Shown here: positions 14,044 to 61,209 of the stretch, piece after piece
Position numbering within the stretch: the first letter of the stretch is position 1
Layout: each line of letters begins with the position of its first letter
DNA from: Paraspadella gotoi
Lineage: Eukaryota > Animalia > Chaetognatha
DNA: 64,000 nt
Assembly (NCBI GenBank): GCA_051294375.1
Contig: CM119268.1
Coordinates: 21,173,020 to 21,237,019 of the forward strand
Direction: 5' to 3'
Translations under genes and position numbers: made by a program
Notes under the pieces: generated by a model
Databases searched by the model: none
The model's input: the letters and a program-made list of their open reading frames with translations, nothing else
What the model was told of the DNA's origin: nothing

Positions 14044-14089
<46 letters not shown>

Positions 14090-14209: not shown

Positions 14210-14294
<85 letters not shown>

Positions 14295-14349: not shown

Positions 14350-17095
14350 TAAAGTAGGGACCGACAAAAACGATGAATGAAGATTGAGAATGCCAAAAAA
14401 AAGGAAAAAGAGAGGACGCTACTTTAAAGAGAGAAATGCAAATCAGCTGTTAAAAAAACTTGCTAACGTTACTTTCCTTCTCTTGTCCACCTTCGTATCA
14501 TCTTCCCTTACTTTTTATCTAAACTTTTCTTCCATTTTTAGGAATTCGAAAATATCGATCGAATGCCAATTAAAAAGTCAAAACAGAAATCTCGTTGTGG
14601 CAAACAGGGAATGGATGAGAGCGGGGAGAGAGATTGGCCGAGAACAGTGCCGCAAGACAAAAACAAGCGGCAGAAAAGAAGAGAGAGAGAGAGAGAGGAG
14701 AGAGAGCAGGAGAGAGAGAGAGAGAGAGAGAGAGACGGCAGAGAGCGCAAGAGCCAGAGAGAGAGAAGCCGAGAGACAAAAGGAGAGCGTCAGAAGAGAT
14801 CACGAAAGAAAAGGTTCTAAAAGGCAAACAATCGCGGAAGCATAAAAAAAGACAATGAAAAAAATCCGCAGGTATCGCTGAACTGGCAGGAGGGTCTGAT
14901 AGGTAATAAGAGTATGCGAAGGAATCGTCAGGACGCACGGAAAAAGCAGCTGGTAAATGAAATTTCCGAAATAAGAGCGAGTGTGTGCGAGTGCCGAAAG
15001 ACAGACAGAGAAAGAGGACTACCAGAACAAGGAGAGAATGGATTTTTGAAATGAAATAGCGAAAGCAAGTCTCTCTATTTTTTTTTCTACTTGATTTTCA
15101 CTTCGTTTGTATTGAATGAGTTTTTCCAATTTGTTATCCCTCTTTCTTGTTAACATTTTTACATTTTTTAAGTGTTTTTTTAGTTATTTTTCTTAAAATC
15201 TGTTTCTCCCTTCCTGTTTTTCATTTTTATTTACCTTCTCTTTTTCTCTTTCTCCTCGTCTCTCTCTCCTCTCTCTCGCTCTGCTCTCTTCTCCTCCCGA
15301 GTTCTCTCCTCTCTCTCTTCTTCCTTCTTCTCTCTTTATTTCCTATTTTTTCTCCCTTTTCTCTTTTTCATATTTTCTCTCGTTCATCTCATCTCATTCG
15401 GAACGAACGAAATCGATTGAAAATGTCAATGACTACGATCAGGGCATAAATTATTTCAAAAGGGTCAGTGCGGAAAGTATCCTCTCGTCTTTATCTGTGT
15501 CATTAAAATCTTTTTTTGTTATTCATATTTTAAAAAAGACCATATTTTCATTAAATTCAGTGTTTTAATTTTATCATTTTAGAATTAATACAATTCTGGC
15601 ATCGTCAAAAATTGATGGGCCATCACTCAACTAGGTTTTTCGTTCCATTTGAAAGTAAAAGGGAACGCAGTATCATTCAAATAAACGTTCTTTTATGCGG
15701 TCAATAAGCAATGCTTTTTTATTTAGAAAATATACCCAATTTTTAAACATTTAAACTGTAAATGCTCTTCAATGTCATCCATGTCACTCCAAAACCCGAA
15801 GTCAATAAAAAGCCTGACACTAAAAATTAACCTATAACCCAACTTAAAACCTCTTGACGTTTCTAGCCACTAATAAAAAACCAACTGTTATTCTTATCTC
15901 CATTTGTTTTTTGTGCAGAAGCATCAAAAAAGCTTTTCCATTTTCCTTTTCTCTTCTCCTTCTCTCCCTTCTCTCTCTTCTCTCTTGCCTCTCTTCTCTC
16001 CTGCGTCTGGTATCTTTTCCCTCCTCTCGTCTCTCTCCTCTCCTGCTCTCTCTCCCGCCACGCTCGCCTCTCGCCCGGCCTCCTCCTCTCATCGGCCATC
16101 TTGTTCTCACCCTCTCGTCTACTCCTCTCCTTCTCTCTCTTTCGCCGGCACACCCTCATGTTTTGAGAACATGTCGGATCGTATTTTCGTTTTCCTCCGT
16201 CGTTTCGACCGATCGAGCGGAAGGGCGGGTCAACGTGGCCCAGGTTTTTAGTCGAAGATCATGGACGCCGTGCAGGCGTTCAGAATCTGTAAAACGTTAA
16301 ATATTTTCATTTTCGTATGACGAAATGATAATTGAAATTCGGTTTCTTTCATTTTTCTTTGAAATATTCCTTTAATTTCCTTTAAAAATGTATTTTGTTC
16401 AAATCTTTCCTTCGTTTAAATAAAATTTAAATGATAATCTTTAACTTTGTAATAATCTTTCCCGAATTAAGAAACCAAAACAATTTACATTGAAAATTCC
16501 CAATTTATTTTACTTTCTTCGTTTTAAAAATATTGAAGACCAAAAACAACCAGAACCTAAACTCAAGGCAACGAACGACAACGACGACAACGACGACAAC
16601 GACGCGGCAACGATGTCGAACGATAAAGAAAACACGTTTGGTCACGACCAAAAATAATCCCAACTTCTCGTTTTTGTTCTTTTATTGAGAAGTCAAATGA
16701 AAAAAGGAAAAACAAAGGAAAACGAAAAAAAACGGGAAAAGAAAAAAAATAGAAAAAGTGTATGTTGAAACCTTTAAGTTTATCGCTGAAGTTCTGCCAA
16801 CATCCTTTCTTTTGTGCAAATTCCTGACGAATCAATGGCGCAATTGCAATTCAGTGTTAGAAATTATCAACGAAAAGTCATTTATTAAATGCAAAAAATG
16901 TTTAGACTTGGCAAATAATATTAGCCTTATTTTCCCGCCCCAGAACGCCCCACTTTCATCTTAAAATAATTTATTTTTTTTACGTTAAAGATTGAGTTGG
17001 AAGTTAGGGTTAGGGATTGAGGTTAGTTGATTAAGGTTAGGATTAGGCTTGTGATTAAGGTTAGGATTTTAGGTTAGTGATTATAGGTTAGGGAG
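14350..17095 (+). repeat. Third, indel-rich direct copy of segment ~110-2600
   Basis: Collinear matches such as GACCGATCGAGCGGAAGGGCGGGTCAACGTGGCCCAGG at 16207 versus 1698, with frequent insertions. Confidence 0.95.
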
Positions 17096-17915: not shown

Positions 17916-18301
17916 CGAGTGAAATCTGTGAGCGTCTGTCTGCCTGTGATTGGGTCCTTCCTCCTGGCACCTTTTTTTCATTAGCGCCTTCACGACCTCA
18001 CCATCCCTGAGGGCCTTCACCGCATTCACTGCCTCCATTCTAACCCTTTTTCCCGGCCACTCTCACTCAGTGCCCTCACTTTTCCATTTGTCCTCACCTC
18101 ACCTTTGAAATGAGTTTAATCCTCATCGATCGTTTTTGACCGTGTCTGTCTGTCGGTCTGTCTGTCTCTCTGTCCGTCGGTCTGTCTGTCTCTCTGTCCG
18201 TCGTCCTGTTGTCTGTCTCTCTTGTCCTGTCTCCGTCGTCTGTCTGTAGTCGGCAATTGCCTAGGTTCACCCCGCCTGTAGGCATGACACCTTCAGTCCT
18301 G

Positions 18302-18372
18302 ACCCGGTGGCTCATTGAGTAAAGCCATCAGCTCATGACCACTAGGTACCGGGTTCAAATCCCAACCCGGTA
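18302..18372 (+). promoter_or_regulatory. tRNA-derived internal Pol III promoter (A box, B box), tRNA-Met-like loop
   Basis: A box-like TGGCTCATTGAG and B box GGTTCAAATCCC with tRNA-like spacing, plus a CTCATGA anticodon-like loop. The cloverleaf is imperfect, so this is not a functional tRNA. Confidence 0.75.
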
Positions 18373-18377
18373 CTTAC

Positions 18378-18463
18378 CCTGTGGGAAGCGTGAGGACGGC
18401 CGTAAGCCGCCTTGGGGGCGTGGCAACCCTCAAAGCTGGTTCCAAGCCAGGACCGTTCCATGG
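18378..18463 (+). ncRNA. P5-type twister ribozyme (noisy copy), predicted cleavage 18403/18404
   Basis: Element order is GAGG, 7 nt, TAA, GCC, GCC, P3 hairpin, CTGG TTCCAAGC CAG, P5. It has indels relative to the cleaner inverted copy. Confidence 0.65.
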
Positions 18464-18528
18464 CTACTAAGGGGGTTATAGAAGTTGACGGATAGTCATC
18501 TTCAGCCCACTTAGCGCCTAATCCACAC

Positions 18529-18539
18529 TGGTGAGCCCG
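18529..18539 (+). promoter_or_regulatory. Putative primer binding site (tRNA-Trp-like)
   Basis: TGGTGAGCCCG lies 1 nt after the LTR-terminal CA. It matches the usual tRNA-Trp PBS start TGGTGACCCCG at 10/11 positions (reference sequence recalled, not searched). Confidence 0.55.
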
Positions 18540-18816
18540 TGGATAAGGCGCTAAGTGGGTGGAAGATATATCCGTAACTTCTATAACCCCCTTTAGTAGC
18601 CATGGAAGCGGTCCTGGGCTTGGAACCAGGCTTGAGGGGTTGCCACGCCCCCAAGGCGGCTTACGGCCGTCCTCACGCTTCCACAGGGTAAGTACCGGGT
18701 TGGGATTGAACCCGGTACCTAGTGGTCATGAGCTGATGGCTTTACTCAATGAGCACCGGTCAGGACTGAAGGTGTCATGCTACAGGCGGGTGAACCTAGG
18801 CAATGCCGCGACTACA
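18539..18816 (-). mobile_element. Inverted copy of family A LTR (fold-back)
   Basis: Reverse complement of 18245-18526, ending at ACTACA 18811-18816. Confidence 0.85.
18600..18687 (-). ncRNA. P5-type twister ribozyme, predicted cleavage 18663/18662
   Basis: Minus strand reads CCTGTGGAA GCGT GAGG ACGGCCG TAA GCC GCC TTGGGGG cgtggcaac CCCTCAA G CCTGG TTCCAAGC CCAGG accgc TTCCATGG. P5, the catalytic GA, UAA, T2 (GCC), P3, P4 and the loop-4 motif are all present. Confidence 0.8.
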
Positions 18817-21798: not shown

Positions 21799-23579
21799 AT
21801 TTTTTACTCTTTTTATGCTTTTTTTCGCTTTTTTTTCGACGACTTTTTGCTTTAATTTAATACTTTCTTCCATTTTTTTGCGGGGCTCTTTATATATTTT
21901 TATCTATTTTTCTCCTTTGACTTTTTCACGCTGAGATACTTGGTTCTTTAATCCCTTTTTTTCCTTTTTATTTTATAATTTTGTTATATTTGATTTTTTT
22001 TAAATACTTTCATCTCATCTTTCCTCTTTCAGTTTTCTCATTTTCTTTTTTTTTCTCTTTCCTTTTTTTTCCATTGTTCATTCTTATTTAACTAGTCAGC
22101 GTTTATTTAATTAATTTCTTTGATTTTCTCTTTTTTTCCAATATCTCTCATCTTATTTCTCTCTCCTTTTTTTCTTTTTTGTCTTTTATTACCTCTTGAG
22201 CATTACTCCCATTTTCCACAAAATTTCTCCCATTTTCCCTCCTTTATTTTTTTCTCCTCTCTATTTTCCTATCTTTTCCCCTTCACTCTCCTGCGCCTTG
22301 CAAACGACCAGAACTTTGTTGGCACGCCAATAAGAAGCCGCACTGAGCTCTTCGTTTTCCGCCAAACTCCGCTCTCTGCTTCGGTCTCTCATTCTCTCTC
22401 TCTCTCTGCTCTCTTTTGGGTCATCAAGGCTACGATCAACGATTCATTAGGCTTCTCTCTCCACGCTTTCTCAAATTTTTTAAAGAGAAGTGAAAAAGAG
22501 AAGAGAAAAAAAAGAAAAAAAGAAAAGAAAAAAAGAGAAGAGAAAAAAGGGAATGAATAAGAAAAGAAAAAAGAAAAGTAAATAAAAAGAAAAGAAAAAA
22601 AAAGTAAATAAAAAGAAGAGAAAAAAAGAAATAACAAAAAAAAATAAAAAAGAGGGAAGAAAAAGAGACAAGAAAAAGAGAGAAGAAAGAGAGATGAGAA
22701 AAAGAGAAGAGAAAAAAGAGAATTGAAAAAGAGAAGAGAAAAAAAAGAGAAAAAGAGAGAAAAAAAGGAGAAGTAAAAAAAAGAAGAGAAAAAAAATCAT
22801 ACAATATAACCTTAATCCCCCCAAAAATTATCCATTCCCCACTTTTTTTCGGCCTTGTAGATATTATGAGTTTCTCATTAATATGTTATGTCATGTCAAG
22901 ATAGAGGGGCGTTTACCGCCACAGCTCTTTCCCATCTCCCTCTTATATTGTACATAACCGTCTTTACTAAACTTTAGACTTATTAGACTCCATATCTTTA
23001 CTTACCTCTTTTACCTGATGAGAGACTAGTTAGTACCTACCTTTAGCTAGATACCCATCTTCCCAGCATGTCATGTCATGTCACGAGAAATACACGTGAT
23101 AAGGCGGTCACTGCGGCGCAACACATTTGCATTACCGTTCTTGTTTATTACTTTTCTTGAAATTCTTGATAGAAAACTTTCAAAGTTTTTATTTTGTAAT
23201 ATAGTGATGAAGGCCTTAAACCGCCCGAGCCTGTCCAAATTTTTTTATTAAATATCTAATTCATTTAGTGGCATAAATACCGAATCTAGAAATCTTTTCC
23301 ACCAAATTCAAACCTCAGGTGGTCATGAAATAAAATTAATTGCTGCTGTTGTTGTTGTTGTTGTTGCTGTTGTTGTTGTTGTTGTTGTTGTTTGTGTGAA
23401 ATGATCTCCTCGCCTGGAAGACTCGACGCAATAACAAAGATTGATCAGGCATTCAGGATGCACCTAGCCAGTCTTCGCCTGACTGATGAATCATCAAAAC
23501 AGAAACATGGACTCTTTTTTTTTAAAGTCGTTTCTCTTCATCAACTTTCACCGCAACGCGACTCTGCAGTTCATAGTCT

Positions 23580-23613: not shown

Positions 23614-23958
23614 TGTCTCTTGATAATGACTTTTTCAAAAAAATGTTGGTGACACAAAAGGGAGGAAGAGAACGACGACGACGACAGCGACGAAAATGAG
23701 GTTCGAGAACGAAGCACTATGATTACGTGAATGACAACGACGACGACGACGACGATGACGACGACAAAAAAAACGAGGGAACAAAGAATGAAAAGCAAAA
23801 ACTAATAAGAGAACAAACAAACGCGGAATCATCAAAGGCACAATGACGAAGGCAACCAATTTTGCAGAAGGCGACTTCGATGTCGACTTTATATTGCGTT
23901 GCTCTTGGAATTTAGTGAATTGAAATTGAATTGGAATTGAGTGAATGGCATCACGGTA

Positions 23959-24409
23959 TTGCAACGCGGTATTGCCAACCGGGCACTGCATCGCGGCATT
24001 GCAATACGGTTTTGCAAACCGGGCATTGCATTGCGGCATTGCAATACGGTTTTTCAAACCGGGCACTGCATCGCGGCATTGCAATACGGTTTTGCAAACC
24101 GGGCATTGCATCGCGGCATTGCAATACGGTTTTGCAAACCGGGCATTGCATCGCGGCATTGCAATACGGTTTTGCAAACCGGGCACTGCATCGCGGCTTT
24201 GCAATACAGTTTTGCAAACCGGGCACTGCATCGCGGCATTGCAATACAGTTTTGCAAACCGGGCATTGCATCGCGGCATTGCAATACGGTTTTTCAAACC
24301 GGGCACTGCATCGCGGCATTGCAATATGGTTTTGCAAACCGGGCACTGCATCGCGGCATTGCAATACGGTTTTGCAAACCGGGCACTGCATCACGACATT
24401 GCAATACGG
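23959..24409. repeat. 40-bp GC-rich minisatellite (GCAATACGGTTTTGCAAACCGGGCACTGCATCGCGGCATT)n, ~11 copies
   Basis: Exact 40-bp period from 24001 to 24361 with few substitutions and no spacers. Confidence 0.97.
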
Positions 24410-29769: not shown

Positions 29770-32060
29770 TAACAAATGGTTGAGGGCGGTAGTCCAAGCC
29801 TAAGCAGTTAATCGAAAACGAGCCCACGTCTTAAAATGACATCACCGTTCTTCTCATTCTCCTGCATAAGAACGAACCAGGAAGTTTGAGTGCTTCCAAT
29901 AGGCGGTCATTGCGCATCCAAGGGGTTCGAGGTCGAGACACCGTCGGAGTGCAGATCTAACATCGTTCGCTTTGCCCCTTTCTTAACAGCTTTCTAATGA
30001 TCTGGTCCGCCGCGGCGGTCCGCCGCACTTGCCTTCCTTGTTGTTGGGCTCTTCGCTGTTAATCCCGAGTTCTGCCGCCGAGTTCGCCGCCAGCGGCAAC
30101 GGATGTCGTTTTGTCGCATCGGCAACGGCGCGCAATGAGCAGAGAGCGACAAGTGTCACGAGTTTTGCTTCGAGTCTTTGTCGTGTTTCGCTTCTACAGA
30201 TGACATCTCCGGCATCGGCAAACCCAATGTGCAAATAGAGAGGCGAGTTTTTTTTTTGCGCATGAAATTTTTCTCCTTTTTTTCGAAAATCCTAAAGCAT
30301 CGTAGTTAGGGCAGGCAGGGGCACGCGCAGCTCCATATCTCAGCGCCCATTGGAATTCGTACTCCGGTGACGCGCCGTAAGCAGTGGTTTGGCACCAGGT
30401 TAATAGCTCGGCCAGCTAGGCACCGAAGGACCAGATTGTCGATTGGGGTGTGGGCCAGTGTTTCTAATTCAGAATAAACTTCAGGAGGCTCGGGTAGAAA
30501 CCGGGAAAACTGGATGTGAAGTTATAGGTGGCTGGTGGTAGTGGAGGTTTGAGGCTCCAAAGTCATGACTTTTCAAGTCCACGGCCATTCGGACTTTTGT
30601 AAGATAAAGAATCACACTCTCTGTTTTTCTTTCTTTTTCATGCAGTTAGAAGTGACGCTCCCCTTCTTGTCTAATAAACAGATTCCAGAGGTAAGCGAAT
30701 AGAGAGAATTTATCGTTTTAATTAGGTTTAATAATGTCGGGTCAACGAAATTCTAACTTATCGTATATTAAAACTCCTGAAAACTTACTTTAGGAGACGT
30801 TTTTCCCGAGCTTGAGGTCTATTTCCAGTGGACGACCTCAGATTGGAGTGTAAAAATCGTAGACTTCCAAAAAATCCTGTAAGCCATTTGGCGAACGAAT
30901 GGGATTGGGAAGTCCTCGAAAAAATCGCTGCGCTTGGGAGTGGTGAGCAGCTTGTAGAGGTTGAAAGGAGAGAAGTTCGAAAAACGATGAACCGCGTGGC
31001 CTTCGGAAGTAAGCCATCCCCGTGCATTTTTTACCGGGACGATGTCGCTCGTCATGAGGAATCCATTATTTCGCACAACCTTTTTTAAGTGGGATGTGGA
31101 TTTCCACGCTTTACTTCTGATTTTTTCATCTTCTTTGGTTTTGGGCGCAAAAATCTTGAGGGCGACGGCGAACGGCACTCTTTTGGTCGTAGGCATTCGA
31201 GAATGACTGAAGCTGCCTTTTCCCTAAATACAAGGCCACATACTTGAAATCACAATGGAAAAGTAAAAGTGGTAATCGACAATTACTTTTAACTTGGTAT
31301 TAGAAAGTATAAATCTAAGATTTTAAAGTAAAAAATGATTTATTTATTACAAGAGTTTGAAGTGCATTTAAAAGTAATAGGACCCTGTTATTTTCGCAGG
31401 GCGTAACATTTCTAAAAATTTCAACCCTCATTTCGATACCCAAACTTTTACCCACGCTTCCATAGCCTTCGTATCTGTAAAGAATATTGGTCCGCCGCGA
31501 ATCAGATACTTGTAGAAACTCCGGGGTAATCGCAAACTGGGTGGTTAGGCATTCCTTGGCCAAAAAGTGGGTGTACTAAACTTTCTTGAGTCGTGGAGCT
31601 CCCGAGAAAGTAGATTTTGGCATGGAGAAATCCTCGATCTCCTCGATCTCGTAAGGGTCAGGTTGGTAGGAAAAGAATCGGTACGCTAAAGGAAAGCCCC
31701 GCTGGCAGAAGTTCGAGAACGAACCGCGGTCGGAAGTCGCCCGGGAGATGGCAGTGGGAAGAAGTCCCGATGATGTGGCAGCTGGGACGATTGTTCGCTC
31801 CGCAATTATTTTCTGGCGAAATTTCGGGCGAAGAAGAAAAGAGCCGCCTCGCAGTTGCTTGACGGGGTTGGACGATCGATTTCTTCCAGTCGCCCTCCGA
31901 GGACGTATCCTTATCCGTTGGTTCGGGGCTTTGGGGTTGCTCATATCATTGTTCTTCGACTGCGATATGTGGCGAAGGAGTTATTTTTGGAAGTTTTGTT
32001 TTAGATTGAGAAGGAATTGTATCGAAACAAATACGCTAAAAAAAAATTCCGTGGTTGATT
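29770..32060 (-). pseudogene. Microsatellite-free, higher-GC island with interrupted coding-like frames, family unidentified
   Basis: Complex sequence with short minus-strand frames (e.g. SPEYEFQWALRYGAARAPACPNYDALGFSKKG, PYEIEEIEDFSMPKSTF) broken by stops. No motif recognised. Confidence 0.25.
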
Positions 32061-34554: not shown

Positions 34555-36599
34555 TTTTTCTATTTTTCTTTTTTTCTTTCTTTCTTTTTTTCTTTCTTTC
34601 TTTCTTTCTTTTTCCCCCAATTTTTATTCTTCTCTTTCTTTATTTTCTTTTTTCTTTTTTCCTTTCTCTCTTCCTTTCTTTTCCCCCTCTTTTTATTCTT
34701 CTCTTTCTTTTTTTTTCTTTTTTTTCCTTTCTCTCTTTCTTTCTTTTCCCCTGTTACCCCAATTAGCATCAATGTTAACGAGCGTGTTGTTGGCGACAGC
34801 CCGCGCCCTAAAAAAAAGAGAAAAAAGAAGAACAAAAAAACCAATTATCTTTTAGGTCGGGATTTTTTTTTTCATTTTTAAATGAAATTCTGAAAAAGTT
34901 GTATACTTATTGTCTTTAAATTAATTCGCTGTTTAACCTCATTTGAAAAATATNNNNNNNNNNNNNNNNNNNNNNNNNNNNNNNNNNNNNNNNNNNNNNN
35001 NNNNNNNNNNNNNNNNNNNNNNNNNNNNNNNNNNNNNNNNNNNNNNNNNNNNNNNNNNNNNNNNNNNNNNNNNNNNNNNNNNNNNNNNNNNNNNNNNNNN
35101 NNNNNNNNNNNNNNNNNNNNNNNNNNNNNNNNNNNNNNNNNNNNNNNNNNNNNNNNNNNNNNNNNNNNNNNNNNNNNNNNNNNNNNNNNNNNNNNNNNNN
35201 NNNNNNNNNNNNNNNNNNNNNNNNNNNNNNNNNNNNNNNNNNNNNNNNNNNNNNAAAATCCAATATCGACTCTGCAGACGCTTACCTTTTTTTTTCTTTG
35301 GGGTGGGGTTTGCCATACCTTTTTTCTTTAAGGTGGGATAAGTCTTACATATCCTTCTACGTTAACTTTAGTCACCTCCGAAAAATAATCTCTTTCTCCT
35401 CTTTCTCTCTCTCTCTTCTCTCCTTTCCCTCACCCTCCCACCACCCGCCGACTCAATCGCGCGCAGCCGTCGCAAGGCCTCCGTCGATGAGAAAAAAACC
35501 AAAATTTGTTCATTGAGTCCTGCTACAGCGGTATTTTTACGATTTCCTGCCCACCTCAGCGAATCTCGTTTAACGGTCGTCCCTTATCCGCTCTCCCCCT
35601 TTCGTTCGTCGTTTGTCTAGGCTGTCGTCGTCTCGTATTCGCTTACTTTCGTGTTCGTCGTCTCGCTCGTTCGCTCGTCGTCGCTCGTCGTCGTCGTTCG
35701 TTCTTCGTCGTCGTCGTTCAGCATGCTCCAAATAGCTAACCTCCGTAATTTCATGCGGAGAAAAAAAACTCGCTCAATGAACCAGCAAAAGCAAACATGC
35801 CACGTCGTTCAAGATGACTCTCTTCTTAAATGTTGAGGGGCGTAATGAATCTGTGCTCTATCCTAGGTACATTAGTACATTGCCTCTATATTTATACGGG
35901 TACTATATAGTATTGCCCGCATCTAATACTTAATTAATTTTTCCTTTTATATAATTGAAACATTCTTTGCAACGTTATACCACTTCATTGATGTGAGGAA
36001 GCCAGGTTACTCTGGAAGTGAATGAGCGGAGACTGCGAAATACCAGTTTTGATTCTGAAAGCTTGGAGGTCCTGCCATGTCATTATTCTTGTAAGTGGTG
36101 AATGAAGGCTTAAACAAAGCTTAAGCATGTTCAAGTCAAGGGGCAGGGTTTTTAAATTTAATTACATGATAGATAATTTTTATATGCAGTTTTACCAATT
36201 TCATTTTAAATTTTAAAGTTTCCATTACTTTTGATAATAATCAATAGTGCGGCGACGGAGTGCCTAAAACCCCCATCATCTTTTGCGGCAGAAGCCGCAG
36301 CACGCCACAGCCTTCAGAACATCAAAGCTGCAGTAACGGAACCCGTCAAGTCCGCAGGAACCGCAGCCGTCGAAGGCAGCGGACGCCGCTTCGCCATTTG
36401 CGTTTATTCCGATGAGGACCGAAAAAAAAAATCCCCTTTTTTTTTCGTCGGATTCATGAGCATAAAAAGGTGAAATAGGAGAGCAAAAAAAGGAGAGAAA
36501 AAGAGAAAAAAGGAGGAAAAAAAAAGGTGGGAAAAAGGGAAAAAAAAAGGATGAAATTGAGAAAAAAGGGAAATTTGGTTTTTGAGGATGGAAAAAAAG

Positions 36600-39500
36600 G
36601 AAAGAAGAGTTGAGAGGAAGGAAGAGGATGGAAGGAAGGAAGAGTTAGAGAGAAGGAGGGAAGCGATGAAGGACAAGGGGAATGAAGTGGATGAGGACGA
36701 AAGGATAGGAAGGAAGGAAGGAAGGGAATAAAAAGAAAAAAATACAAAAGGAAGAGAAGTTTGAAGAGGGAAGGAAGGAAGGATTGGAATTGGAAGTAAG
36801 GAAGGGATGGCATGGAAGGAGATGAAGGAAGGAAAAGGAAGCGGGAAGGAGGGAAAAGGGAGGAAGAGGAAGGGAGAGAAGGAAAGAAAGGTTGAAGGAA
36901 AGGAAGGAAGGAAGGAAGGAAGGAAGGAAAAAAGGAAGGAAGGTTGCAGAGGAAGAAGGGAAGATGGAAGGAAGGAAGGAAGGAAGGAAGGAAGGAAGAG
37001 TGAGAGGAAAGGAAGGAGGATGGAAGGGGAAGGAGAGTTGAGAGGAAGGAAGGAAGAAGGAAGGAAGGAAGGAAAGAAGGAAGGCAAGAGTTTGAGAGGA
37101 AGAAGGAAGGATGGAAGGAAGGAAGGAAGGTGGATTGGAAGAAAGCGATGGAAGGAAGGAAGGAAGGAAGAAGGAAGGAAGGAAGGAAGGAGGAAGGAAG
37201 AGTTGAGAGGAAGGAAGGAAGGAAAGGGGAAGAAGGAAAAGAAGGAAGGAAGAGTTGCAGAGGAAGGAAGAAGGATGGAAGGAAGGAAGGAAGGAAGGAA
37301 GGAAGAGTCGAGAGGATGGAATGGAAGGTTAGGAAGGAAGGAAGGAAGAAGGAAGGAAGAGTTGAGAGGATGGAAGGAAGCGAGGGAAGCGAAGAGAAGG
37401 AAGGAAGGAAGGAAGGAAGAAGGAAGGGAAGGAAGGAAGAGTTAGGGATGGAAGCGAAGGATGGAAGGATGCGAAGGATGGAGGAAGGAAGAGTTGAGAG
37501 GAAGGAAGGAAGGAAGGAAGGAAGGGAGGAATGAAGGAAGCGAAAGAAAGGAAGAAGGAAGAGTTGAGAGGGAAGAAGAAGGATGGAAGGAAGGAAGAAG
37601 GAAGGAAAGGAAGAGTTGCAGAGGAAGAAGGAAGGAAGGAAGGCAAGGAAGGAAGGAAGAAGGAAGGAAGAGTTGAGAAGGAAGGAAGGAAGAAGGAAGG
37701 AAGGGAGGAAGGAGAGAAGGAAGAGTTGAGGGAGGAAGGAAGGAAAGGGATGGAAGGAAGGAAGGAAGGAAAGGAAGGAAGAGTGGAGGAAGGTAAGGAA
37801 GGAAGGAAGGAAGGAAGAGGAAGGAAGAAGACAGTTTGAGAGGGAAGGAAGGTAAGGATGGAAGGATGAAGGGATGGAAGGAAGGAAAGGAAGGTAAGAG
37901 TTGAGAGGAAGGAAGGAAGGATGGAAGGAAGGAAAGGAAAGGAAGGAAGAGTTGAGAGGATGGAAAGGAAGGAAGGAAGGAAGGAAGGAAGGAAGAGTTG
38001 AGAGGATGGAAGGGAAGGATGGAAGGATGGAAGGATGGAAGGAAGGAAGGAAGAAGAGTTGAGAGGAAGGAAGGAGATGGAAGGAAGGAAGGCAAGGAAG
38101 GAAGAGTTAGAGGATGGAAGGAAGAAGGAAGGAAGGAAGGAGGAAGGAAAGTGAGAGGATGGAAGAAGGAAGGAAGGAAGGAAGGAAGGAAGGAAGGAAA
38201 GAGTGAGTAGGAAGGAAGGAAGGATGGAAGGAAGGAGAAAGGGATGGATTGAAGGGAAGGAAGGAAGGATAGGAAGAGTTGAGAGGGAAGAAGGAAGGAA
38301 GGAAGGAGGAAGGAAGAAGGAAGGAAGAGTTGAGAGGAAGAAGGAAGATGGAGGAAGAAGAGTTTGAGAGAAGAAGCGAAGGAAGGAAGCGAAGGAAGGA
38401 AAGAAGGAAGGAAGAGTTGAGAGGAAGGAGAAGGATGGAAGGAAGGAAAGGAGGGATGGATGGAAGCGAAGGATGGAAGGAAGGAAGAAGAAGGAAAAGG
38501 AAGAAGAGTTTGAGAGGAAGGAAGAAGGATGGAAGAAGGAAGGAAGGGAAGGAAGAAGGAAGAGTTGAGAGAAAGGAAGAGAAGGAAGGAAGGAAGGAAG
38601 GAAGGAAGGAAGTAAGGAAGGTTGAGAGGAAGGAAGGAAGGAGAGGAAGAAGCGAAGGAAGGAAGAGTGAGAGGATGGAAGAAGGGATGGAAGGATGGAA
38701 AAGGATGGAAGGAAGGAAGGAAGGAGAGTTGAGAGGATAGAAGGGAAGGATGGAAGGAGAGGAAGGAAGGAAGGAATGAGTTGAGAGGAAGTGAAGGAAG
38801 GAAGGAAGGACAGGAAGGAAGGAAGGAAGCGAAGGAGAGAGATTGGAGGAGGAAGGAAGGATGGAAGAAGGAAGGATGGAAGGAGGAAGGAAGGGAAGAA
38901 GAAGAGTTGAGGGAAGGAAGAAGGAAGGAAAGGAAGGAAGGAAGGGAAGCAGTTGATGAGGATGGAAGGAAAGGATGGAAAGGATGGAAGGATGGAAGAA
39001 AGGAAGGAAGGAAGAGTTGATAGGAAGAAGGAAGGATTGGAAGAAGGAAGGAAGGAAGGAAGAGTTGAGAGGGCAAGGAAGAAGAAGGAAGGAAGGAGGA
39101 AGGAAGAAGGGAAGGAAGAAGAGTTGAGAGGAAGGAAGGAAGGATGGAAGGGAAGGACAGGAAGGAAGGAAGGAAGAGTTGAGAGGAAGGAAGGAGGAGG
39201 AAGAAGGAAGGAAGGAAGGAAGAGTTGAGAGGAAGGAAGGAAGGATGGAAGGATGGAAGGATGGAAAGGAAGGAAGAGGAGAGTTGAGAGGAAGGAAGCG
39301 AAGGATGGAAGGAAGGAAGGAAGGAAGGAAGAGTTGAGAGGGATGGAAGGAAGATGGAAGGATGGAAGGATGGAAGAAGGAAGGAAGGAAGAGTTGGAGG
39401 AAGAAGGAAGGATGGAAGGAAGGAACGGAAGGAAGGAAGAGTTGAGAGGTATGGAAGGAAGGATGGAAGGATGGAAGGATGGGAAGGAAGGGAAAGGAAG

Positions 39501-40500
39501 AAGAGTTGAGAGGAAGGAAGGAAGGAATGGAAGGAAGGGAAGGAAGGAATGAAGAGTTGAGAGGATGGAAGGAAGGAAGGAAGGAAGGAAGGAAGGGGAA
39601 GGAAGAGTTGAGAGGATGGAAGGAAGGAAGGAAGGAAGGAAGGAAGAAGGAAGGAAGAGTTGAGAGGAAGGAAGGAAGGATGGAAGGAAGAAGGAAGGAA
39701 GTAAGGAAAGAGTTGAGAGAAGGAAGGAAGGGAAGGAAGGAAGGAAGGAAGGAAGGAAGGAAGGAAGGAAGGAAGAGTTTGAGAGGAAGGAAGGAAGGAT
39801 GGAAGGATGGAAAGGATGGAAGGAAGGAAGGAAGGAAGAGTTGAGAGGAAGAGGAAGGAAGGAAAGGAAGGAAGAAGGAAGGAAGAAGAGTTGAGAGGAA
39901 GAAGGAAGGAAAGGAAAGGAAGGAAGGAAGGAAGGAAGGAAGAGGAAGGAAGAAGGAGTGAGGAGAAGAAGGAGAGGAAGGGGATGAGAAGGAAGGAAGG
40001 AAGGAGGAAGGAAGGGAAGACTTGAGAGGAAGGAAGGAAGATGGAAGGAAGGAGGAAGGAAGGAAGGAAGCGAAGGAGAAGGAAGAAGTTGAGAGGAAGG
40101 TTAAGGAGTGAAGGGAAGGAGGGAAGAAGAAGGCAGGAAGGAAGGAAGAGTTGAGAGGAAGGAGGAAGAAGGAGGAAGAAGGAAGGAAAGGGCGAAGGAA
40201 GTAAGCGAAGAAAGTTGAGAGGAAGGAAGGAAGGAAGGAAGGAAGGACACAGGAAGAAACAAGGATAGGAAGAGTTGAGAGGAAAGAAGGAAGGATGGAA
40301 GGAAGGAAGGGAAGGAAGAAGGAAGGAGAGTTGAGAGGAAGGAAGAAGAAGGAGGAAGGAAGAGTGAGAGGAAGGATGGAAGGATGGAAGTAAGGAAGGA
40401 TGAAGAAAGGAGGAAGAAGGAAGGAAGAAGTTGAAGAGGTAAGGATGAAGAAGGGAAGCGAGAGTGAAGGAAGGAAGGAAAGGAGGAAGAGTTTGAGAGG
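36600..40500. repeat. ~3.9-kb polypurine (GGAA)n array punctuated by GAGTTGAGAG
   Basis: Directly visible. The 1030-aa minus ORF is its by-product. Confidence 0.97.
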
Positions 40501-40635
40501 ATGGCAGAAAGAGTAAAATATGAGGATTGGCCAATTTATGTCAAATGGGTGAGGTCCGAAATTTATTTAGGAACCTTCCCAAACAAACTTCAGACATTTT
40601 TGAGAAAACTTTCAATGGACCAAAATTGTCAGACT

Positions 40636-42544: not shown

Positions 42545-43035
42545 ACTACAACACGAGACGCCGATTCGAAACGAGGCTCCATTTCCGGGAAAAGCGGTCG
42601 ACGCCGTCGTCCAATGGGGAGGGGAGATGCAGTAGACCCAATCTTGGTCACTGCCAGTTAATACCATCGCCCAATCGGAGGGGAGATGCAGTAGAAAACC
42701 CGGTCAATGCTGTTGTCAGAATGCCAGTGGATGTCGTCGCCAAATGGGGGGTGGGATATGCCATATCTGCAATCCCGGACAATGCTGATGTCAAAATTCC
42801 GGACGATGCGGTTGCCCTATGGGTGGGAGATGCAATAGACCCTTTTCCGGTCAATGCTTTTGCCAAAATTCCGGACGATGCCGTCGTCCAATGGGAGGGC
42901 AGATGCAGTAGACCATATCCTGGTCAATGCGGTTGCCAAATTTCTGGGCGGTCGCAAGAAGCCGGGCCATTGCCGTCGCGCAATTGTTTGGCGATGCTGA
43001 CAATCGAATGTCTTCGCCCGATCGACAATTATTAG
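42545..43035 (+). CDS. Cysteine-rich repeat protein or pseudogene (24-aa unit ~ GRCxRPxPGQCxCQNSGRCRRPMG)
   Basis: The frame from 42681 gives GRCSRKPGQCCCQNASGCRRQMGGGICHICNPGQC*CQNSGRCGCPMGGRCNRPFSGQCFCQNSGRCRRPMGG. Differences between units in the GQCxCQ motif are synonymous in this frame (GGT/GGA, TGT/TGC, CAG/CAA). It has one TGA and some frameshifts. Confidence 0.55.
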
Positions 43036-44039: not shown

Positions 44040-49342
<5,303 letters not shown>

Positions 49343-55249: not shown

Positions 55250-58200
55250 GCGATTGTACAGCAGACCTGGTGTTCTTATATCGGTGCAATTGTCCAGCAC
55301 ATTACCTGAGAGCAATTTTCTGTACCTTTCCTTTCTTTCTCTTCTCTACTTTCTTCATTGTGTGTTTAATTTTGACAACTACTTTTCCTGCTTTCTTTCT
55401 CAACCTCTCTCTTATTTCTTACGATCTACTCTCAATAATAGGTGCGTCTTCTTGCTCTCCAGAATCTAATGATTGAAGCCGTCAGCGAGGCAATGACTGG
55501 GGCCTTCACATACGGCACCATAATGTAGGCCAGCCCAACAAGAAGGGGTCGGGTGGTCGATAAATAAACATAATAGAACTATCAGTATTGAATATGTATG
55601 AGTATATGAGTTATGTTTTGTTGTTGTTGCCTATTAATACTGAGTTTAGTATCGCGCCAGGGTACTTTATATTGTGATAATCTTCCCTGCGCTAAATCAT
55701 GAATAAATAGCAGCTATTATATGACTATATACTATAATGCCGAAGCAGTGGAAGTTTAGTTGCATAAAAAAGATTTTAATTTACATGTAGAAGCGCTCTG
55801 AGCCAATGAGTTATCTCTCAAAGTTATTTGATTATAAAATAATAGAATACTCCTTGAAAAAGTGTTTTCCACTCAGGAATTATCTATAAAATAATTCGTG
55901 AAGTGTGGCGAGAGGAGAGAAAAATTAGCTAGGAGAGTAACTAAAACGAAGGAGAAAAGACAAATTAGAAAGATCGAGCCGAGAAGAGATTCTGAATTCT
56001 ACAATAAATTATTCATTACTCGCTTCTACGTAACGTGAGCAGAGAAAAGTAAAGATAATTATCATAGGTGAGTGCTCTATTATAAATGATCTGGATAAAG
56101 ATGCCGGTAGGCGGCATCAGTGGAGAATTAACCCTCAAAGATTATTTTAAACTGTTTATAATTAAAAGCTTAATTTGAAAATATAAAAATAATCCTTGGA
56201 AATAGGAACTGAAATGCGCCCTATATGGGTTTGCGCTATGGCAGACATCAAGTTTCATTTTATAGTCAATAACATTCGTAAACATAATGACGAAATGAAG
56301 GTAGGCAGAGTATGGAGAGTATGAGCAGTGAATCAGTTGTATGATTCATATCTAAGAACACTTTACAAAGAAGATATGTATACGCACAGAGAGATATTCT
56401 CTGTGAGATTCGTAGAGACTTAATTTTGGAGGCATAAAGACTGAAACAGAGACCACGAACTCTACTAACTCGTTTGGTATCTCACATACATCGTCGTCTT
56501 ATGCTGTGAAATCATTAAATCAAAACATTAGGATAAGTTACGGTATAATATTAAAATATGTCTCTCGATGTTTGTATACATACCAGGTAAGAACAATATG
56601 ATGTAGAGTACTGGAGTCATTGTATGCGCACGTGCAAACGTAATGGAACCGCGGGAAATAACACGATCTTGCGTCAGGATTTTATGTTGCACATGACGCC
56701 CGATTCGTGAGCTTACGGAATTTGAAATCACAATCAATCTACACTCTGGTGTGACACTAAAAATATAATATCATCGTAGCTACAAAGAGAAAAAGAGAAT
56801 ACGTATTTAGAAATGCGTATAGCTGAGCTGAAGGAGGGAGAGATGAGATGAGAGAACACATATTCTCCAAGAAGTATAGCAATATGAGAGAGAGAGAGTA
56901 TTTTTCTCGCAGAGAGCATGAAAAAGAAATTTATCCAGTCAGATTACGAGACACCAATCTGTGACGAATGGGTTTGAATTCGGTTCACCCCGGGCAAACG
57001 GTTTGATTACTGATAACTTGTAGAATCCAGCGGTTCAATCCTTGTGTGGCTATCAGACGACCGTCAATTAATAATTTGGGTAAAAATAGACGAGAATTAT
57101 GAAGCCTATTTCAATTTTTTTTCTGAACTCGTGTTCAGTATCTTAATTACTCGTACTCATTGCATAAATATTTATTGTGTGCTAACACAAAGAAGCCAGC
57201 AGAGAGATACTCATCTCTCTCTCTTTTTTCTTCCTTTCTCTACCGACGGGCGATCGTCGCGGGTCTATCGTGCGACTTACCTGCGTTTCTTACCTTTCCT
57301 TTCTTTCTCTCTCTCTTTCTCCTTGTTTCTCCGTTTCTCTCTCTGTTTCTCTCGCTGTCTCTCTTGCTCTCCAGAAATCTAATGATTGAAGGGTCAGCGA
57401 GGATGACTGGGGCTTAATGAGGGCACATAATTTAGGCTGCACAAAGGGTCCGGTGGTCAAATATATTGACCTTGTTGTTGTTGTTGTTGTTAATGTTGTT
57501 GTCCTTTCTGTTGCCGCTCAGGCTTTTTTGGTCTTCTGGTTAATTGAAAACAATAACAATATTATGGAATTAGTGATAGAAAAAGTAATCTGTAAAGCAA
57601 ATGATCCAAAGTTAGTGATTTTCTCAAAATAATCGATGTTCTACTAAATTCTAAAATTCTAAGAGGGAGAGGGAGAGAAAAATAGAGAGAGAGACAAAGA
57701 GAGAGAGAGAAAGAGAGCGAGAGAGAGAGATTCTAAAGTCTCTAAATTTTTCAACTCGCATCCTGGACGGAAAAGAATTTTCATGTGGGCGTTTTTTAAT
57801 TGATACTGATAAAAAGGTAGCGCTCATCAGTGGAGAATTAACCCTCAAAAGATATATTTTAACTGTTATAATTAAAAGCATAATTTGAAAAATAAAAAAT
57901 ATGCTTGAAATAGGAACTGAAATGGGCCCTAATGGTTTGGCTATTGCGAGCAAGTTTGATTTTGATCCAAGAAACATGGAAACAAATGGCAATGAAGTAG
58001 GAGTTGGGAGTTGAGTGAATCGTTGTATGGTTCATAATAAAACACTTCAAAATTATCTCGATAAATTCTCTGGTGTTCGTCTTTTTGGAGGAAAAGACAT
58101 TGAAGACCCAACAAAATTTGTATCCCAAATCGATTATGAAAACATGCTTTCAAACATGAAATCTGTAAATAATTTAAATTCCGAGTTTCTTCTCAGTCTG

Positions 58201-58575
58201 ACCAATTTTACAGATTTGTGCCATACTATGGGAAATAACGATGTCGTCAGGAATTTAGTGCCCTCTATCACGAATTTGGAAATCACAATCAATCTGCTCT
58301 CGGTTTTTTGCAAATAGCGACGACAAGAGAAAGAAATATTGTAGTTTCTATAGCTTCTGGTGAATATGGAAGCATTCTCCAAAATCATGTTTTTCTCCAA
58401 GAGCTAAAAAAAATTTATCCAGTCATTCACCAATCTTACATGGGTTTGAAATCGGTCACCGCCGGCAAGCGGTTTGATTTATAACTTGTAAATCCAGGGT
58501 TCAATCCTGGTTGCATCAGCGATTAATAATTTGTAAAAAGATTATTTATAACTTTTCAATTTTTTTTTGACACGA
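55250..58575 (+). repeat. Tandem duplicate: insertion-corrupted copy (~55250-57130) followed by a cleaner copy (~57240-58575)
   Basis: Shared anchors include CATCAGTGGAGAATTAACCCTCAAA at 56115 and 57825, and AAATTTATCCAGTCA at 56927 and 58411. Confidence 0.9.
58015..58526 (+). CDS. Protein-like frame with stops (gene fragment, unknown product)
   Basis: A 100-aa ORF of normal composition (KTLQNYLDKFSGVRLFGGKDIEDPTKF...) continues past a stop as RRQERNIVVSIASGEYGSILQNHVFLQELKKIYP. Confidence 0.35.
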
Positions 58576-58885
58576 GAGAGTCCGTCAGTTCTAACTTATC
58601 GATAAAATGCACATCAAGAACCATACTGGATGTTCTAGAGGTTATAACTCAGCCCTTTACCCAGACCTGGAAAAAATTAACACACAAGTCTGTAAACAAC
58701 AAAACAGTCAACTAAAAAAAATTAAATACAATGGATTGTTACTCAAAAGTCAAAACCAAAAACAGCATGGAAAGTAATCACCACGTATATGTGTCTGAAA
58801 AATAACTTGCGTAGTTATTATGAATCTAAGAAAGTGAAGAGACAGTAATTATTGATAAGTGTTAATGACAGAACCGTTCAATATA

Positions 58886-58961
58886 AGCAGTCCCTGAGCT
58901 TCGGATCAAGCTGTAACACCATGTTACAGGCGGGTTAAGCGCCCCGTCCCTCTTAACTGCT
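58886..58961 (-). ncRNA. P5-type twister ribozyme in the 3' LTR, predicted cleavage 58937/58936
   Basis: Minus strand reads AGCAGT taa GAGG GACG GGGCGCT TAA CCC GCC TGTAACA tgg TGTTACA G CTTGA TCCGAAGC TCAGG g ACTGCT. It has P5 6 bp, P3 7 bp, P4 5 bp, a loop-4 YCCGAAGC, T1 CG:CG and T2 GCC. Confidence 0.85.
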
Positions 58962-58963
58962 AG

Positions 58964-59035
58964 GCGGCCACCGGGCTAGAACCCCGGACCTTTGGGTTGG
59001 GAGGCAAATGACTTGCCTCCGGCACCAATGGCTAC
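58964..59035 (-). promoter_or_regulatory. 72-nt tRNA-Gly(CCC)-like head with Pol III A/B boxes inside the LTR
   Basis: Acceptor stem GTAGCCA/TGGCCGC, anticodon arm TTTG.CTCCCAA..CAAA, T arm CCGGG GTTCTAG CCCGG. The D arm is degenerate. Confidence 0.75.
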
Positions 59036-59070
59036 TGATGAACGGTTGGTGGATTTTAGTCCACCATACA

Positions 59071-59081
59071 TCCCCCCTCCC
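59071..59081 (-). promoter_or_regulatory. Polypurine tract (PPT)
   Basis: GGGAGGGGGGA lies immediately 5' of the LTR-initial TG on the minus strand. Confidence 0.85.
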
Positions 59082-59320
59082 GTAGGAGGAAGTCTAATCT
59101 CTTCAGTGAATTGTTGTTGGTGGAAAGTGGCGTTCACCAAGTTGAGGCATGTCGCCTGATGTTGTTGTTGGCGGAAAGTGCATCGTCAGTGTTGAGGCAG
59201 TGTCGCGGCTGAACAGGTGTTTGTTGGTCGTGCTGTGTGTGTTCGGAAGTGCCGAATCGAGCATGAAGAGATAGTGAATTTATTGAAAAGCTGTATAGAT
59301 GACAGTAACTCGTTCAAATA

Positions 59321-59407
59321 AGCAGCATCCCTGAGCCTTTGGATCAGGCTGTAACACCAATGTTACAGGGCGGGTGTTAAAGCCCGCCCGTCGCCTCTTG
59401 AACTGCT
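59321..59407 (-). ncRNA. Twister ribozyme in the 5' LTR (indel-rich copy)
   Basis: AGCAGT..GAGG.GACG..TAA..CCCGCC.TGTAACA..TGTTACA G CCTGA TCCAAAGGC TCAGG, collinear with the 3' LTR copy. Confidence 0.6.
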
Positions 59408-59805
59408 AGGCGGCCACTTGGGCTAGTAGGAGCCCTGGAGCGCTTTGGGGGAGGCGAAATGATGGCCACTGGCACAATGGGCTGCTGGATGAACGCGTTG
59501 GTGGATTTTAGTCTAGCCATAAGAAATCAATTATTATTTTCCTTTAAATGATTTTCAATCATTAATCTTGTAAAATACGTAGGATAAAATTTGTAAATAA
59601 GTATTTTATTCATCTTACTATGAAATTAGAACTTGTAATATGTGAACTTTCTAATATTTGTCGCAGATATTCAAACCTAAAATTTTTGGCCCAGTCAAGC
59701 CAAGTTTTACAAAATTAATAGAGAAAATAGTTAGTCTCCAACGTAACAAAAAGAAAAAAGTAATAACTAAACGAAAAGCATAAAGAGAGAGCTCGGAGGA
59801 AATTG

Positions 59806-61133: not shown

Positions 61134-61209
61134 TGAAGAGACAGTAATTATTGATATGTGTTAATGACTGAACCGTTCAATGTAAGCAGTCCCTGAGCTT
61201 CGGATCAGG
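61134..61209 (-). mobile_element. Third family B LTR, cut by an N gap
   Basis: TGAAGAGACAGTAATTATTGAT...AACCGTTCAATGTAAGCAGTCCCTGAGCTTCGGATCAGG is near-identical to 58835-58910. It retains a perfect P4 CCTGA/TCAGG and the loop TCCGAAGC. Confidence 0.9.

What the first reader, a model, noticed from the sequence alone, without database searches (positions are those of the whole stretch)
58835..59523. Mini LTR retroelement whose LTRs contain a tRNA-derived Pol III head fused to a P5-type twister ribozyme (candidate twister LTR-retrozyme)
Seen: two ~240-bp direct repeats with TG..CA ends, a PPT, a probable TSD and no ORF. Each LTR holds a 72-nt tRNA-Gly-like fold followed within 3 nt by a twister fold (P5, GA-CG, UAA, GCC, P3, P4, loop UCCGAAGC). 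Known: plant LTR retrozymes use hammerheads, Cassandra TRIMs carry 5S Pol III promoters in their LTRs, and twisters occur in RTE non-LTR elements. I recall that tRNA-in-LTR non-autonomous elements have also been reported. Inference: Pol III head plus twister inside an animal TRIM LTR is a combination I do not know to be described.
Basis: partly seen in the sequence, partly recalled or inferred. Interest (0 to 1): 0.95.

Follow-up and report, generated by a model that had tools for sequence, protein, structure and literature searches.

The report
Twister-ribozyme LTR retroelement with tRNA promoter
A small, abundant, non-coding retroelement family carries in each terminal repeat a tRNA-derived, promoter-like head followed by a conserved twister-type RNA fold that likely cuts the element's own RNA into a unit predicted to circularise, which would extend ribozyme-driven LTR retroelements beyond the plant hammerhead type.

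Summary
The element is real. It is a 687-bp non-coding LTR element on the minus strand. Short-read contigs show a high-copy family with sharp LTR ends (58835, 59068), a tRNA-Trp-like PBS, a PPT and an empty site. The 5' LTR is an unpolished copy.

Rfam does not call the twister: P2 lacks one base and P1 is reduced to a 6-nt linker.

The strongest support came from elsewhere in the window. A second multicopy LTR family (18245-18816) has the same PBS, another tRNA head and the same twister variant. Between the two families, all catalytic-core bases are kept and 6 of 18 modelled pairs change on both sides while staying paired.

Best reading: a Helenus-like TRIM that works as a twister LTR-retrozyme (Pol III transcript, self-cleavage, circular intermediate, Gypsy-type helper). 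Cleavage, transcription, circles and an animal host are untested. Ten literature searches found no such combination.

The parts
59264..59521 (-). Family 1 (E1) 5' LTR, error-rich unpolished copy
   Evidence: 79.8% identity to the other LTR; almost no short-read contigs laid on it, probably because they fit the other LTR better; twister region 59321-59406 scores 24.1 bits, E 2e-06, with a model not built from it
59249..59263 (-). PBS position (garbled in the window); in reads TGGTGAGCCCGAC, tRNA-Trp-like
   Evidence: One X9 contig joins the internal part to the LTR end through this motif (table 5c); 12 of 13 bases complement the A. mellifera tRNA-Trp 3' end printed in Fig. S2 of PMC10886601
59069..59263 (-). 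195-bp non-coding internal part with about 50-bp tandem units of variable number
   Evidence: joints that go back and a shorter form in X9
59071..59081 (-). Polypurine tract, followed by TG and then the LTR
   Evidence: Sequence; a contig runs from the LTR into it (record 32)
58835..59068 (-). E1 3' LTR, 234 bp, TA..CA
   Evidence: Loose ends in X1: 158 before 58835 and 145 behind 59068, median about 250 nt of unrelated AT-rich flank; the same two ends in X2, X5, X9
58964..59035 (-). tRNA-derived head (acceptor stem, A-box-like 59027-59016, B box 58983-58974, T arm, CCC at the anticodon position); predicted Pol III internal promoter
   Evidence: not called by ARAGORN or Rfam
58886..58961 (-). 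P5-permuted twister-like fold: P5 58961-55/58886-92; P2' 58952-49; G58948-A58947; T1 58946-44/58902-04; 6-nt linker 58943-38; U58937-A-A; P2 58934-32; T2 58931-30/58898-99; P3 58929-22/58911-18; P4 58910-06/58893-97; predicted cut between 58937 and 58936
61134..61209 (-). Third E1 LTR copy, 3' part only, cut by an N gap
   Evidence: 96% identity over 74 bp
18245..18527 (+). Family 2 (E2) LTR, TG..CA, with tRNA-derived head (B box at 18352, CAT at the anticodon position) and twister-like fold 18378-18460
   Evidence: 4135/4276/1456/377 contig pieces in X1/X2/X5/X9; 61/74/19 loose ends behind 18527 in X1/X2/X9
18529..18539 (+). E2 PBS TGGTGAGCCCG, the same motif as in E1 reads
18540..18816 (-). 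Inverted second E2 LTR, twister-like fold 18687-18604; the whole insert 18245-18816 is flanked by TGTC on both sides
   Evidence: Rfam Twister-P5 16.8 bits, E 0.61, gathering 37.6; flanks

Best explanation
This is a high-copy, non-coding miniature LTR retroelement whose LTR holds a tRNA-derived head and a conserved variant twister fold, and it likely works as a twister LTR-retrozyme. Shown: the two-LTR/PBS/PPT anatomy, a large family with sharp ends, and a second family with the same layout and compensatory changes. Inferred steps: (1) Pol III starts at the head in the 5' LTR and, meeting no T4 run in the clean unit, reads through the 3' LTR. (2) The twister in each LTR cuts at LTR position 132/133 and releases a unit of about 430 nt. 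(3) That unit has no terminal redundancy, so it is circularised, probably by a host ligase. (4) A Gypsy-type helper primes at the tRNA-Trp-like PBS, copies round the circle to rebuild two LTRs, primes the plus strand at the PPT and integrates. (5) LTR-LTR recombination leaves mostly solo LTRs.
For: Anatomy and family.
Chance control: 0 of 165,337 shuffles met the descriptor with P3+P5.
Second family: the same scan found E2, whose only local similarity to the E1 LTR is one 19-nt stretch outside its ribozyme. The 36-nt cores align without a gap. Between E1 and the E2 minus arm all 18 modelled pairs are standard and 6 change on both sides (two in T1, one each in P2, P3, the P4 closing pair and the linker), while G-A, U-A-A, the T2 GC and U...AAGC are unchanged. 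On the three-row alignment 96.2% of cells pair, against 17-51% when partners are slid.
Rfam and literature: Rfam's Twister-P5 model aligns E2 in this register. E2's loop GUUCCAAGC equals that of published twister Sma-1-119.
Within-family variation in E2 reads: the G.U pair of P2 becomes A-U at about 13% of X1 depth at a non-CpG site, and the bulged base varies.
Negative control: 0 of 37 prokaryotic or viral loci that share the same 19 fixed letters keep T1, P2 and P4 together.
Termination: no T4 on the sense strand of the E1 unit or of either E2 arm, whereas most animal Helenus LTRs I read have a T-run right after the tRNA part (by eye).
Mechanistic precedent: plant retrozymes (PMC7761336).
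Against: No cleavage, transcript or circle was observed. Both families score below Rfam gathering and E1 gets no Rfam hit. P2 is one base short on its 5' strand, and a review states that changing the number of P2 pairs might disrupt the active site. E1 has A-U where that review calls the P4 closing G-C essentially invariant. In nested-only folding from the head to the LTR end, P2 has probability 0 in both families, P4 and P5 are weak in E1 (0.04, 0.13), and in E2 a competing helix that takes up P2' has 0.99 (pseudoknots are not modelled). The covariation rests on two families, that is single events, and the structure was derived from E1. Lack of T4 is weak evidence: 45% of shuffles also lack it. 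The TSD at E1 is unresolved.
Confidence: 0.6

Rival explanations
1. The twister is active but slow, and mainly forms the 3' end. Molecules cut only in the 3' LTR keep an R region of about 99 nt (head to cut site) and retrotranspose by ordinary linear strand transfer; circles are absent or incidental.
For: The shortened P2 and minimal P1 suggest weak activity. No T4 terminator in the unit. Standard TRIM anatomy suffices (PMC10886601).
Against: Both LTRs carry the same ribozyme and both are transcribed from the 5' head, so nothing seen here favours cutting only the 3' copy. Plant LTR ribozymes yield circles.
Confidence: 0.2
2. An ordinary Helenus-type TRIM that captured a twister long ago. The fold is now catalytically dead and is kept as a structural signal (packaging, dimerisation, RNA stability).
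For: Sub-threshold Rfam scores; P2 deletion; competing folds.
Against: The bases equivalent to the catalytic G and A and both pseudoknots are kept, with compensatory changes, across two families whose heads, P3, P5 and flanking LTR parts have diverged.
Confidence: 0.14
3. The 234-bp unit spreads mainly by itself as a SINE-like element (Pol III head plus ribozyme, as in Schistosoma alpha elements), and two-LTR forms are secondary.
For: LTR bins have roughly 10-25 times the summed contig depth of the covered internal bins (not a copy number). The architecture has a precedent.
Against: Copies start at a fixed base 33 nt upstream of the head, which a Pol III transcript from the head would not contain; they end in a fixed CA; PBS and PPT junctions exist; E2 shows a 4-bp duplication.
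Confidence: 0.04
4. The paired LTRs or the fold are artefacts of a noisy assembly or of chance.
For: The window has 4459 N, many large inverted duplications and an unpolished 5' LTR.
Against: Empty-site, PBS and PPT junctions in independent short-read contigs; shuffle control; second family.
Confidence: 0.02

Closest known systems
Helenus / TRIMp3 (Kojima 2024, PMC10886601)
   Same: TRIM under 1 kb, tRNA-derived A/B boxes in the LTR, PBS and PPT, no protein, head unlikely to be a working tRNA; a tRNA-Trp PBS occurs in Helenus-2_SyJa and Gypsy-32_NVi; animal families make 4-bp TSDs; some LTRs begin with TA.
   Different: The paper never mentions a twister. The three loop motifs searched gave 0, 0 and 1 hits, the one hit in an internal part. 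In the animal families read by eye the tRNA part usually lies near the LTR 3' end with a T-run behind it; here it lies near the 5' end and is followed by a twister fold with no T4.
Plant LTR retrozymes (Cervera et al. 2016, PMC4918200, seen as listing; described in PMC7761336 and PMC6765202 passages)
   Same: Non-coding element with a self-cleaving motif in each LTR, PBS, PPT, 4-bp TSD (seen for E2), Gypsy-type helper.
   Different: They use type III hammerheads and a tRNA-Met PBS, are 1-1.5 kb, and occur in plants; metazoan retrozymes are described as lacking LTR, PBS and PPT. Here: twister-type fold, tRNA-derived promoter-like head, Trp-like PBS, 0.7 kb.
Twister ribozyme type P5 (Rfam RF02684) and Schistosoma T-variants (PMC8501958)
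   Same: G-A / T1 / U-A-A / GC / U-NNN-AAGC order and both pseudoknot pairings; P1 is known to be dispensable; twisters are known in RTE non-LTR elements.
   Different: P2 has 3 pairs with a bulge instead of 4 pairs; P1 is replaced by a 6-nt self-complementary linker; it sits inside an LTR; scores are below gathering.
Schistosoma SINE-like alpha elements and Penelope dimeric hammerheads (PMC6765202 passages)
   Same: Pol III promoter followed by a self-cleaving motif; minimal ribozyme with a short palindromic loop that works as a dimer.
   Different: Those are hammerheads in non-LTR elements; this is a twister fold in an LTR element with PBS and PPT.
Cassandra and Ajax TRIMs (PMC10886601)
   Same: Pol III promoter inside the LTR of a TRIM.
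   Different: 5S-derived, with no ribozyme reported in that paper.

Membership tests
Helenus / TRIMp3 | Two LTRs, under about 1 kb, no coding capacity | tested here: met
   687 bp; longest ATG ORF 53 aa
Helenus / TRIMp3 | tRNA-derived A and B boxes in the LTR | tested here: met
   B box GGTTC at 58983 and 18352/18712; E1's A box has one non-consensus base that is consensus at about 10% of X1 depth
Helenus / TRIMp3 | PBS and PPT | tested here: met
   PPT in the window; PBS in one X9 contig and in E2, 12 of 13 complementary to a printed tRNA-Trp end
Helenus / TRIMp3 | 4-bp (animal) or 5-bp TSD | tested here: inconclusive
   E1 ends are noisy; the empty site fits a 4-bp TSD only if two A's were lost and one base differs. 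E2 has TGTC on both sides but lies in a GTCT satellite
Helenus / TRIMp3 | Transcription by Pol III from the head | not testable with these tools
   No RNA run on record; also not shown for Helenus itself
LTR retrozymes (plant type) | Hammerhead ribozyme in each LTR | tested here: not met
   No hammerhead family hit; the motif is twister-like. It may work like a retrozyme but is not filed as a member
LTR retrozymes (plant type) | LTR-PBS-internal-PPT-LTR without ORF | tested here: met
LTR retrozymes (plant type) | Self-cleaved monomer accumulates as circular RNA | not testable with these tools
   Only contigs were available
Twister ribozyme (P5 type, RF02684) | Conserved L1 (U-A-A; G-A) and L4 (U-NNN-AAGC) bases | tested here: met
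   Unchanged in E1 and E2; match to the Rfam consensus line and to published twisters
Twister ribozyme (P5 type, RF02684) | Pseudoknots T1 (3 bp) and T2 (2 bp) | tested here: met
   5 of 5 pairs in both families, 2 of the T1 pairs compensatory; by complementarity, not by probing
Twister ribozyme (P5 type, RF02684) | P2 of four base pairs | tested here: not met
   3-nt 5' strand in both families; no insertion there among the listed indels (4 and 18 rows not shown). Filed as a variant, not as a canonical member
Twister ribozyme (P5 type, RF02684) | P4 with closing G-C; P1 | tested here: inconclusive
   P4 has 5 bp in both; the closing pair is G-C in E2 and A-U in E1; P1 is at most 1 bp in cis
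Twister ribozyme (P5 type, RF02684) | Rfam gathering score 37.6 | tested here: not met
   E2 16.8 bits; E1 no hit at E<=10
Twister ribozyme (P5 type, RF02684) | Site-specific self-cleavage | not testable with these tools
   Needs an in vitro assay
Functional tRNA gene | Cloverleaf recognised by tRNA finders | tested here: not met
   ARAGORN 0 genes; no Rfam tRNA hit on either head; alternative 9-bp hairpin in E1

The most novel reading that the evidence does not exclude
A new class of LTR retrozyme in a probably animal genome: a self-contained Pol III promoter plus twister cassette that makes circular RNA. The twister is a natural short-P2 variant that cuts as a dimer, because the self-complementary 6-nt linkers of the 5' and 3' LTR copies form P1 in trans, so only two-LTR transcripts are processed. 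The linker is fully self-complementary in both families and even its innermost pair swaps (CG versus GC), which can matter only between two copies. However, 40% of permutations of either linker's letters are also self-complementary.
Probability: 0.25. Interest if true: 0.93.

Novelty: new variant of a known kind. Interest (0 to 1): 0.8.

Why it matters
LTR retrozymes have been described as plant elements with hammerheads, and metazoan retrozymes as lacking LTR, PBS and PPT (PMC7761336). An LTR element with a twister would show that the circular-intermediate route arose again with another ribozyme class, this time with its own Pol III-type promoter. It would give twisters, whose roles are largely unknown outside RTE elements, a second retroelement function. 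It would also show a natural short-P2, P1-less twister that Rfam misses, so such elements are likely undercounted. A Pol III promoter with flanking twisters is the design of the engineered Tornado circular-RNA system (recalled; only a search listing was seen). Every step can be tested with a short in vitro transcript and RT-PCR.

Tried and rejected
- No whole genome is held for this window, so copy number, TSD statistics and the helper element could not be obtained.
- Rfam on E1: nothing relevant. ARAGORN: none.
- Pattern scans for relatives: metagenome contigs 1 locus, viral contigs 27 and 2 loci, prokaryotic genomes 35 loci. The first 28 lacked flanking P4/P5 by eye, 20 of them gave no Rfam hit, and 0 of the last 37 kept T1, P2 and P4 together. 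Model hits in these loci (8 of 65) reflect the letters used to select them. All are rejected as chance.
- The model found no third family in the window; the hit at 23193-23237 lacks P3/P4.
- No RNA holder was listed. X9 is only guessed to be RNA and is not used as expression evidence.
Rare E1 variants below 5% were not seen.
- Host: Pfam scans of 16 window ORF fragments gave no family above a curated cut-off, so 'animal' stays unproven.
- TG..CA ends for E1: rejected from read ends. A 5-bp AGAAA TSD is not supported, because the left flank has an extra G before the LTR.
- Earlier scan findings: none by sequence, words or place.

Full report
1. Observation. The element (E1) lies on the minus strand at 59521-58835. 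It has two direct repeats, 59264-59521 and 58835-59068, 79.8% identical with many indels, and a third LTR fragment at 61134-61209 cut by an N gap. The 195-bp internal part ends in a purine tract at 59081-59071; the longest ATG ORF in the element is 53 aa. No genome is held, so I used public runs. Ten of 12 listed runs hold part of the stretch. In the four laid, 16157, 12419, 2194 and 983 contig pieces fit it. In X1, 158 pieces run off into unrelated AT-rich flank before 58835 and 145 behind 59068 (28 and 41 one base further out, about what chance flank matches give), and the other three runs show the same ends. One X1 contig joins 58833 to 59537, an empty site for the whole element. One X9 contig joins the internal part to the LTR end through TGGTGAGCCCGAC, which complements 12 of 13 bases of the tRNA-Trp end printed in Fig. 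S2 of PMC10886601. The 5' LTR attracts almost no contigs and is an unpolished copy. Summed depth is about 10-25 times higher on the LTR than on covered internal bins, which suggests mostly solo LTRs; the tool warns that this is no copy number. The TSD is unresolved: it would be 4 bp if two A's were lost from a run (X2 shows two T's missing 15 bases further on) and the empty allele differs at one base.

2. The head. 59035-58964 has a 7-bp acceptor-like stem (6 pairs in this copy; the majority letters in reads pair at all 7), an A-box-like stretch, a B box, a 5-bp T arm and CCC at the anticodon position. ARAGORN and Rfam do not call it, and a 9-bp hairpin replaces the D and anticodon arms. It is best read as a tRNA-derived promoter, as in Helenus.

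3. The twister fold. Two bases after the head comes P5 - AA - P2' - G-A - T1 - 6 nt - U-A-A - P2 - GC - P3 - P4 with loop UCCGAAGC. All pairs I listed are standard. A relaxed descriptor written with this copy in view was met by 2 of 165,337 shuffles, and by none with P3 and P5. Departures from the known class are real. Rfam gives no twister hit. The 5' strand of P2 has three bases where published twisters have four, and no insertion is listed there in reads (4 rows not shown). The P4 closing pair is A-U. P1 is at most one pair. PMC5408937 says P1 is dispensable but that changing the P2 pair number might disrupt the active site. Nested-only folding in LTR context does not favour P2, P4 or P5 in this copy, although the isolated 76 nt form P5, P4 and most of P3 (z -1.8).

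4. A second family decides the question of chance. The descriptor scan of the whole window gave exactly two hits: E1 and 18674-18625. The second lies in a 572-bp insert (E2, 18245-18816): an LTR with TG..CA ends, the same PBS motif, then an inverted LTR, with TGTC on both sides inside a GTCT satellite. E2 is also multicopy: 4135, 4276, 1456 and 377 pieces, with the LTR end fixed at 18527. It has a different tRNA head with a clean B box, then the same fold. Rfam's Twister-P5 model aligns it weakly (16.8 bits, E 0.61, gathering 37.6), with the same one-base gap in P2 and a P1 without loop. E1 and E2 share only one 19-nt local match, which lies outside E2's ribozyme, yet their 36-nt cores align without gaps with 18 identical positions. 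Between E1 and the E2 minus arm all 18 modelled pairs are standard; 6 change on both sides and 1 on one side, and the catalytic-core bases do not change. On the three-row alignment 96.2% of 53 cells pair; 3 of 500 shuffles reach this and slid controls give 17-51%. These are single events between two families and the structure came from E1, so the numbers are not probabilities. Within E2 reads the first P2 pair shifts from G.U to A-U at about 13% of X1 depth and the bulged base varies. Within E1 the listed core variants at 5% or more are mostly CpG-type transitions or fall in the P3 loop, its closing pair or the end of P5, and the window's G.U in P4 is G-C in 99% of X1 depth. As a control, 0 of 37 prokaryotic and viral loci with the same 19 fixed letters keep T1, P2 and P4 together. 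Against activity in E2, a competing helix that takes up P2' dominates nested folding.

5. Mechanism. Shown: the anatomy, the family, the conserved fold, and no T4 on the sense strand of the clean E1 unit or of either E2 arm (weak, since 45% of shuffles also lack T4, and the noisy LTR has one). Inferred: Pol III starts at the head, reads both LTRs, and each twister cuts at LTR position 132/133, releasing about 430 nt without terminal redundancy. Such a molecule cannot do ordinary strand transfer unless it is circularised, which is the plant retrozyme route (PMC7761336). A Gypsy-type helper is suggested by the tRNA 3'-end PBS and the 4-bp duplication at E2. I give this 0.6. A slow ribozyme serving only as 3'-end former gets 0.2, a dead structural relic 0.14, SINE-like spread 0.04 and artefact 0.02. 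The 6-nt linker is self-complementary in both families and its inner pair swaps, recalling the palindromic minimal hammerheads of Penelope elements that cut as dimers (PMC6765202). But 40% of letter permutations are also self-complementary, and one pair plus a tetraloop would also fit six bases, so the dimer is the bold reading, not the main one.

6. Known relatives and novelty. A tRNA in a TRIM LTR is known (Helenus, PMC10886601: main text parts 1-4 of 6; supplement parts 1, 5-8 and 10 of 11 read; the whole supplement searched for three loop motifs, where line breaks could hide a match). That paper has no mention of twister. Ribozymes in LTRs are known for plant hammerhead retrozymes. Twisters are known in RTE elements (PMC8501958: passages and section 17). 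Pol III plus hammerhead is known in Schistosoma SINE-like elements (PMC6765202: passages). Ten searches of the held library found no twister inside an LTR and no twister with a tRNA-derived head. I read passages of PMC7761336, PMC9695139, PMC11721086, PMC11722881, 10.1101/2022.07.19.500677 and PMC5408937 (plus its section 11), and saw only listings of the rest, including PMC4918200. Subscription papers, bioRxiv supplements, Repbase and Dfam were not visible, and any of them could hold a prior description. The element meets the tested Helenus features except the TSD, fails plant-retrozyme membership on ribozyme class, and fails canonical twister membership on P2 and on score. The host is a repeat-rich eukaryote; animal is plausible from the PBS and TSD type but was not shown.

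7. Verdict. A real feature and a new variant of a known kind: a Helenus-like TRIM lineage, with at least two families in one genome, carrying a conserved non-canonical twister. Interest 0.8; a cleavage assay is decisive.

Noticed in passing
window 18245-18816: The second family occurs here as LTR-PBS-inverted LTR with TG..CA outer ends and a 4-bp flank repeat. The satellite flanks keep one orientation, so it is not a simple fold-back read. It may be an aberrant reverse-transcription product or an amplification chimera; the junction was not tested.
   Followed up: partly
window 18776-18794 vs 58920-58938: The U3 part of E2 matches the cut-site/P2/P3 stretch of the E1 ribozyme at 17 of 19 bases (BLAST E 0.44); a relic of an older ribozyme, or chance.
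   Followed up: no
reads laid on 58837-59068: A full-length LTR copy with 42 substitutions and no gaps appears in all four runs (table 8): an old copy or a subfamily that would help a covariation test; its letters were not shown.
   Followed up: no
window 59069-59263: The internal part is built of about 50-bp tandem units whose number varies among copies (joints; shorter form in X9).
   Followed up: partly
window 85-17094, 44047-49336: Large imperfect inverted duplications (for example 274-3900 with 10889-7445) and 4459 N in the window; these suggest amplification chimeras or an unpolished assembly.
   Followed up: no
window 30200-31250, minus strand: Frameshifted fragments that look like a protein kinase (motifs recalled); Pfam did not confirm them.
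   Followed up: partly
window 23945-24409; 42604-42950; 36400-40560: Tandem arrays: units of about 80 bp, units of about 60 bp, and a 4-kb purine-skewed satellite.
   Followed up: no
window 56115-56363 / 57825-58047 and 56901-57045 / 58390-58511: Local direct duplications near E1; the empty-site contig has a higher depth than the other long X1 contigs listed and may come from a duplicated flank.
   Followed up: no
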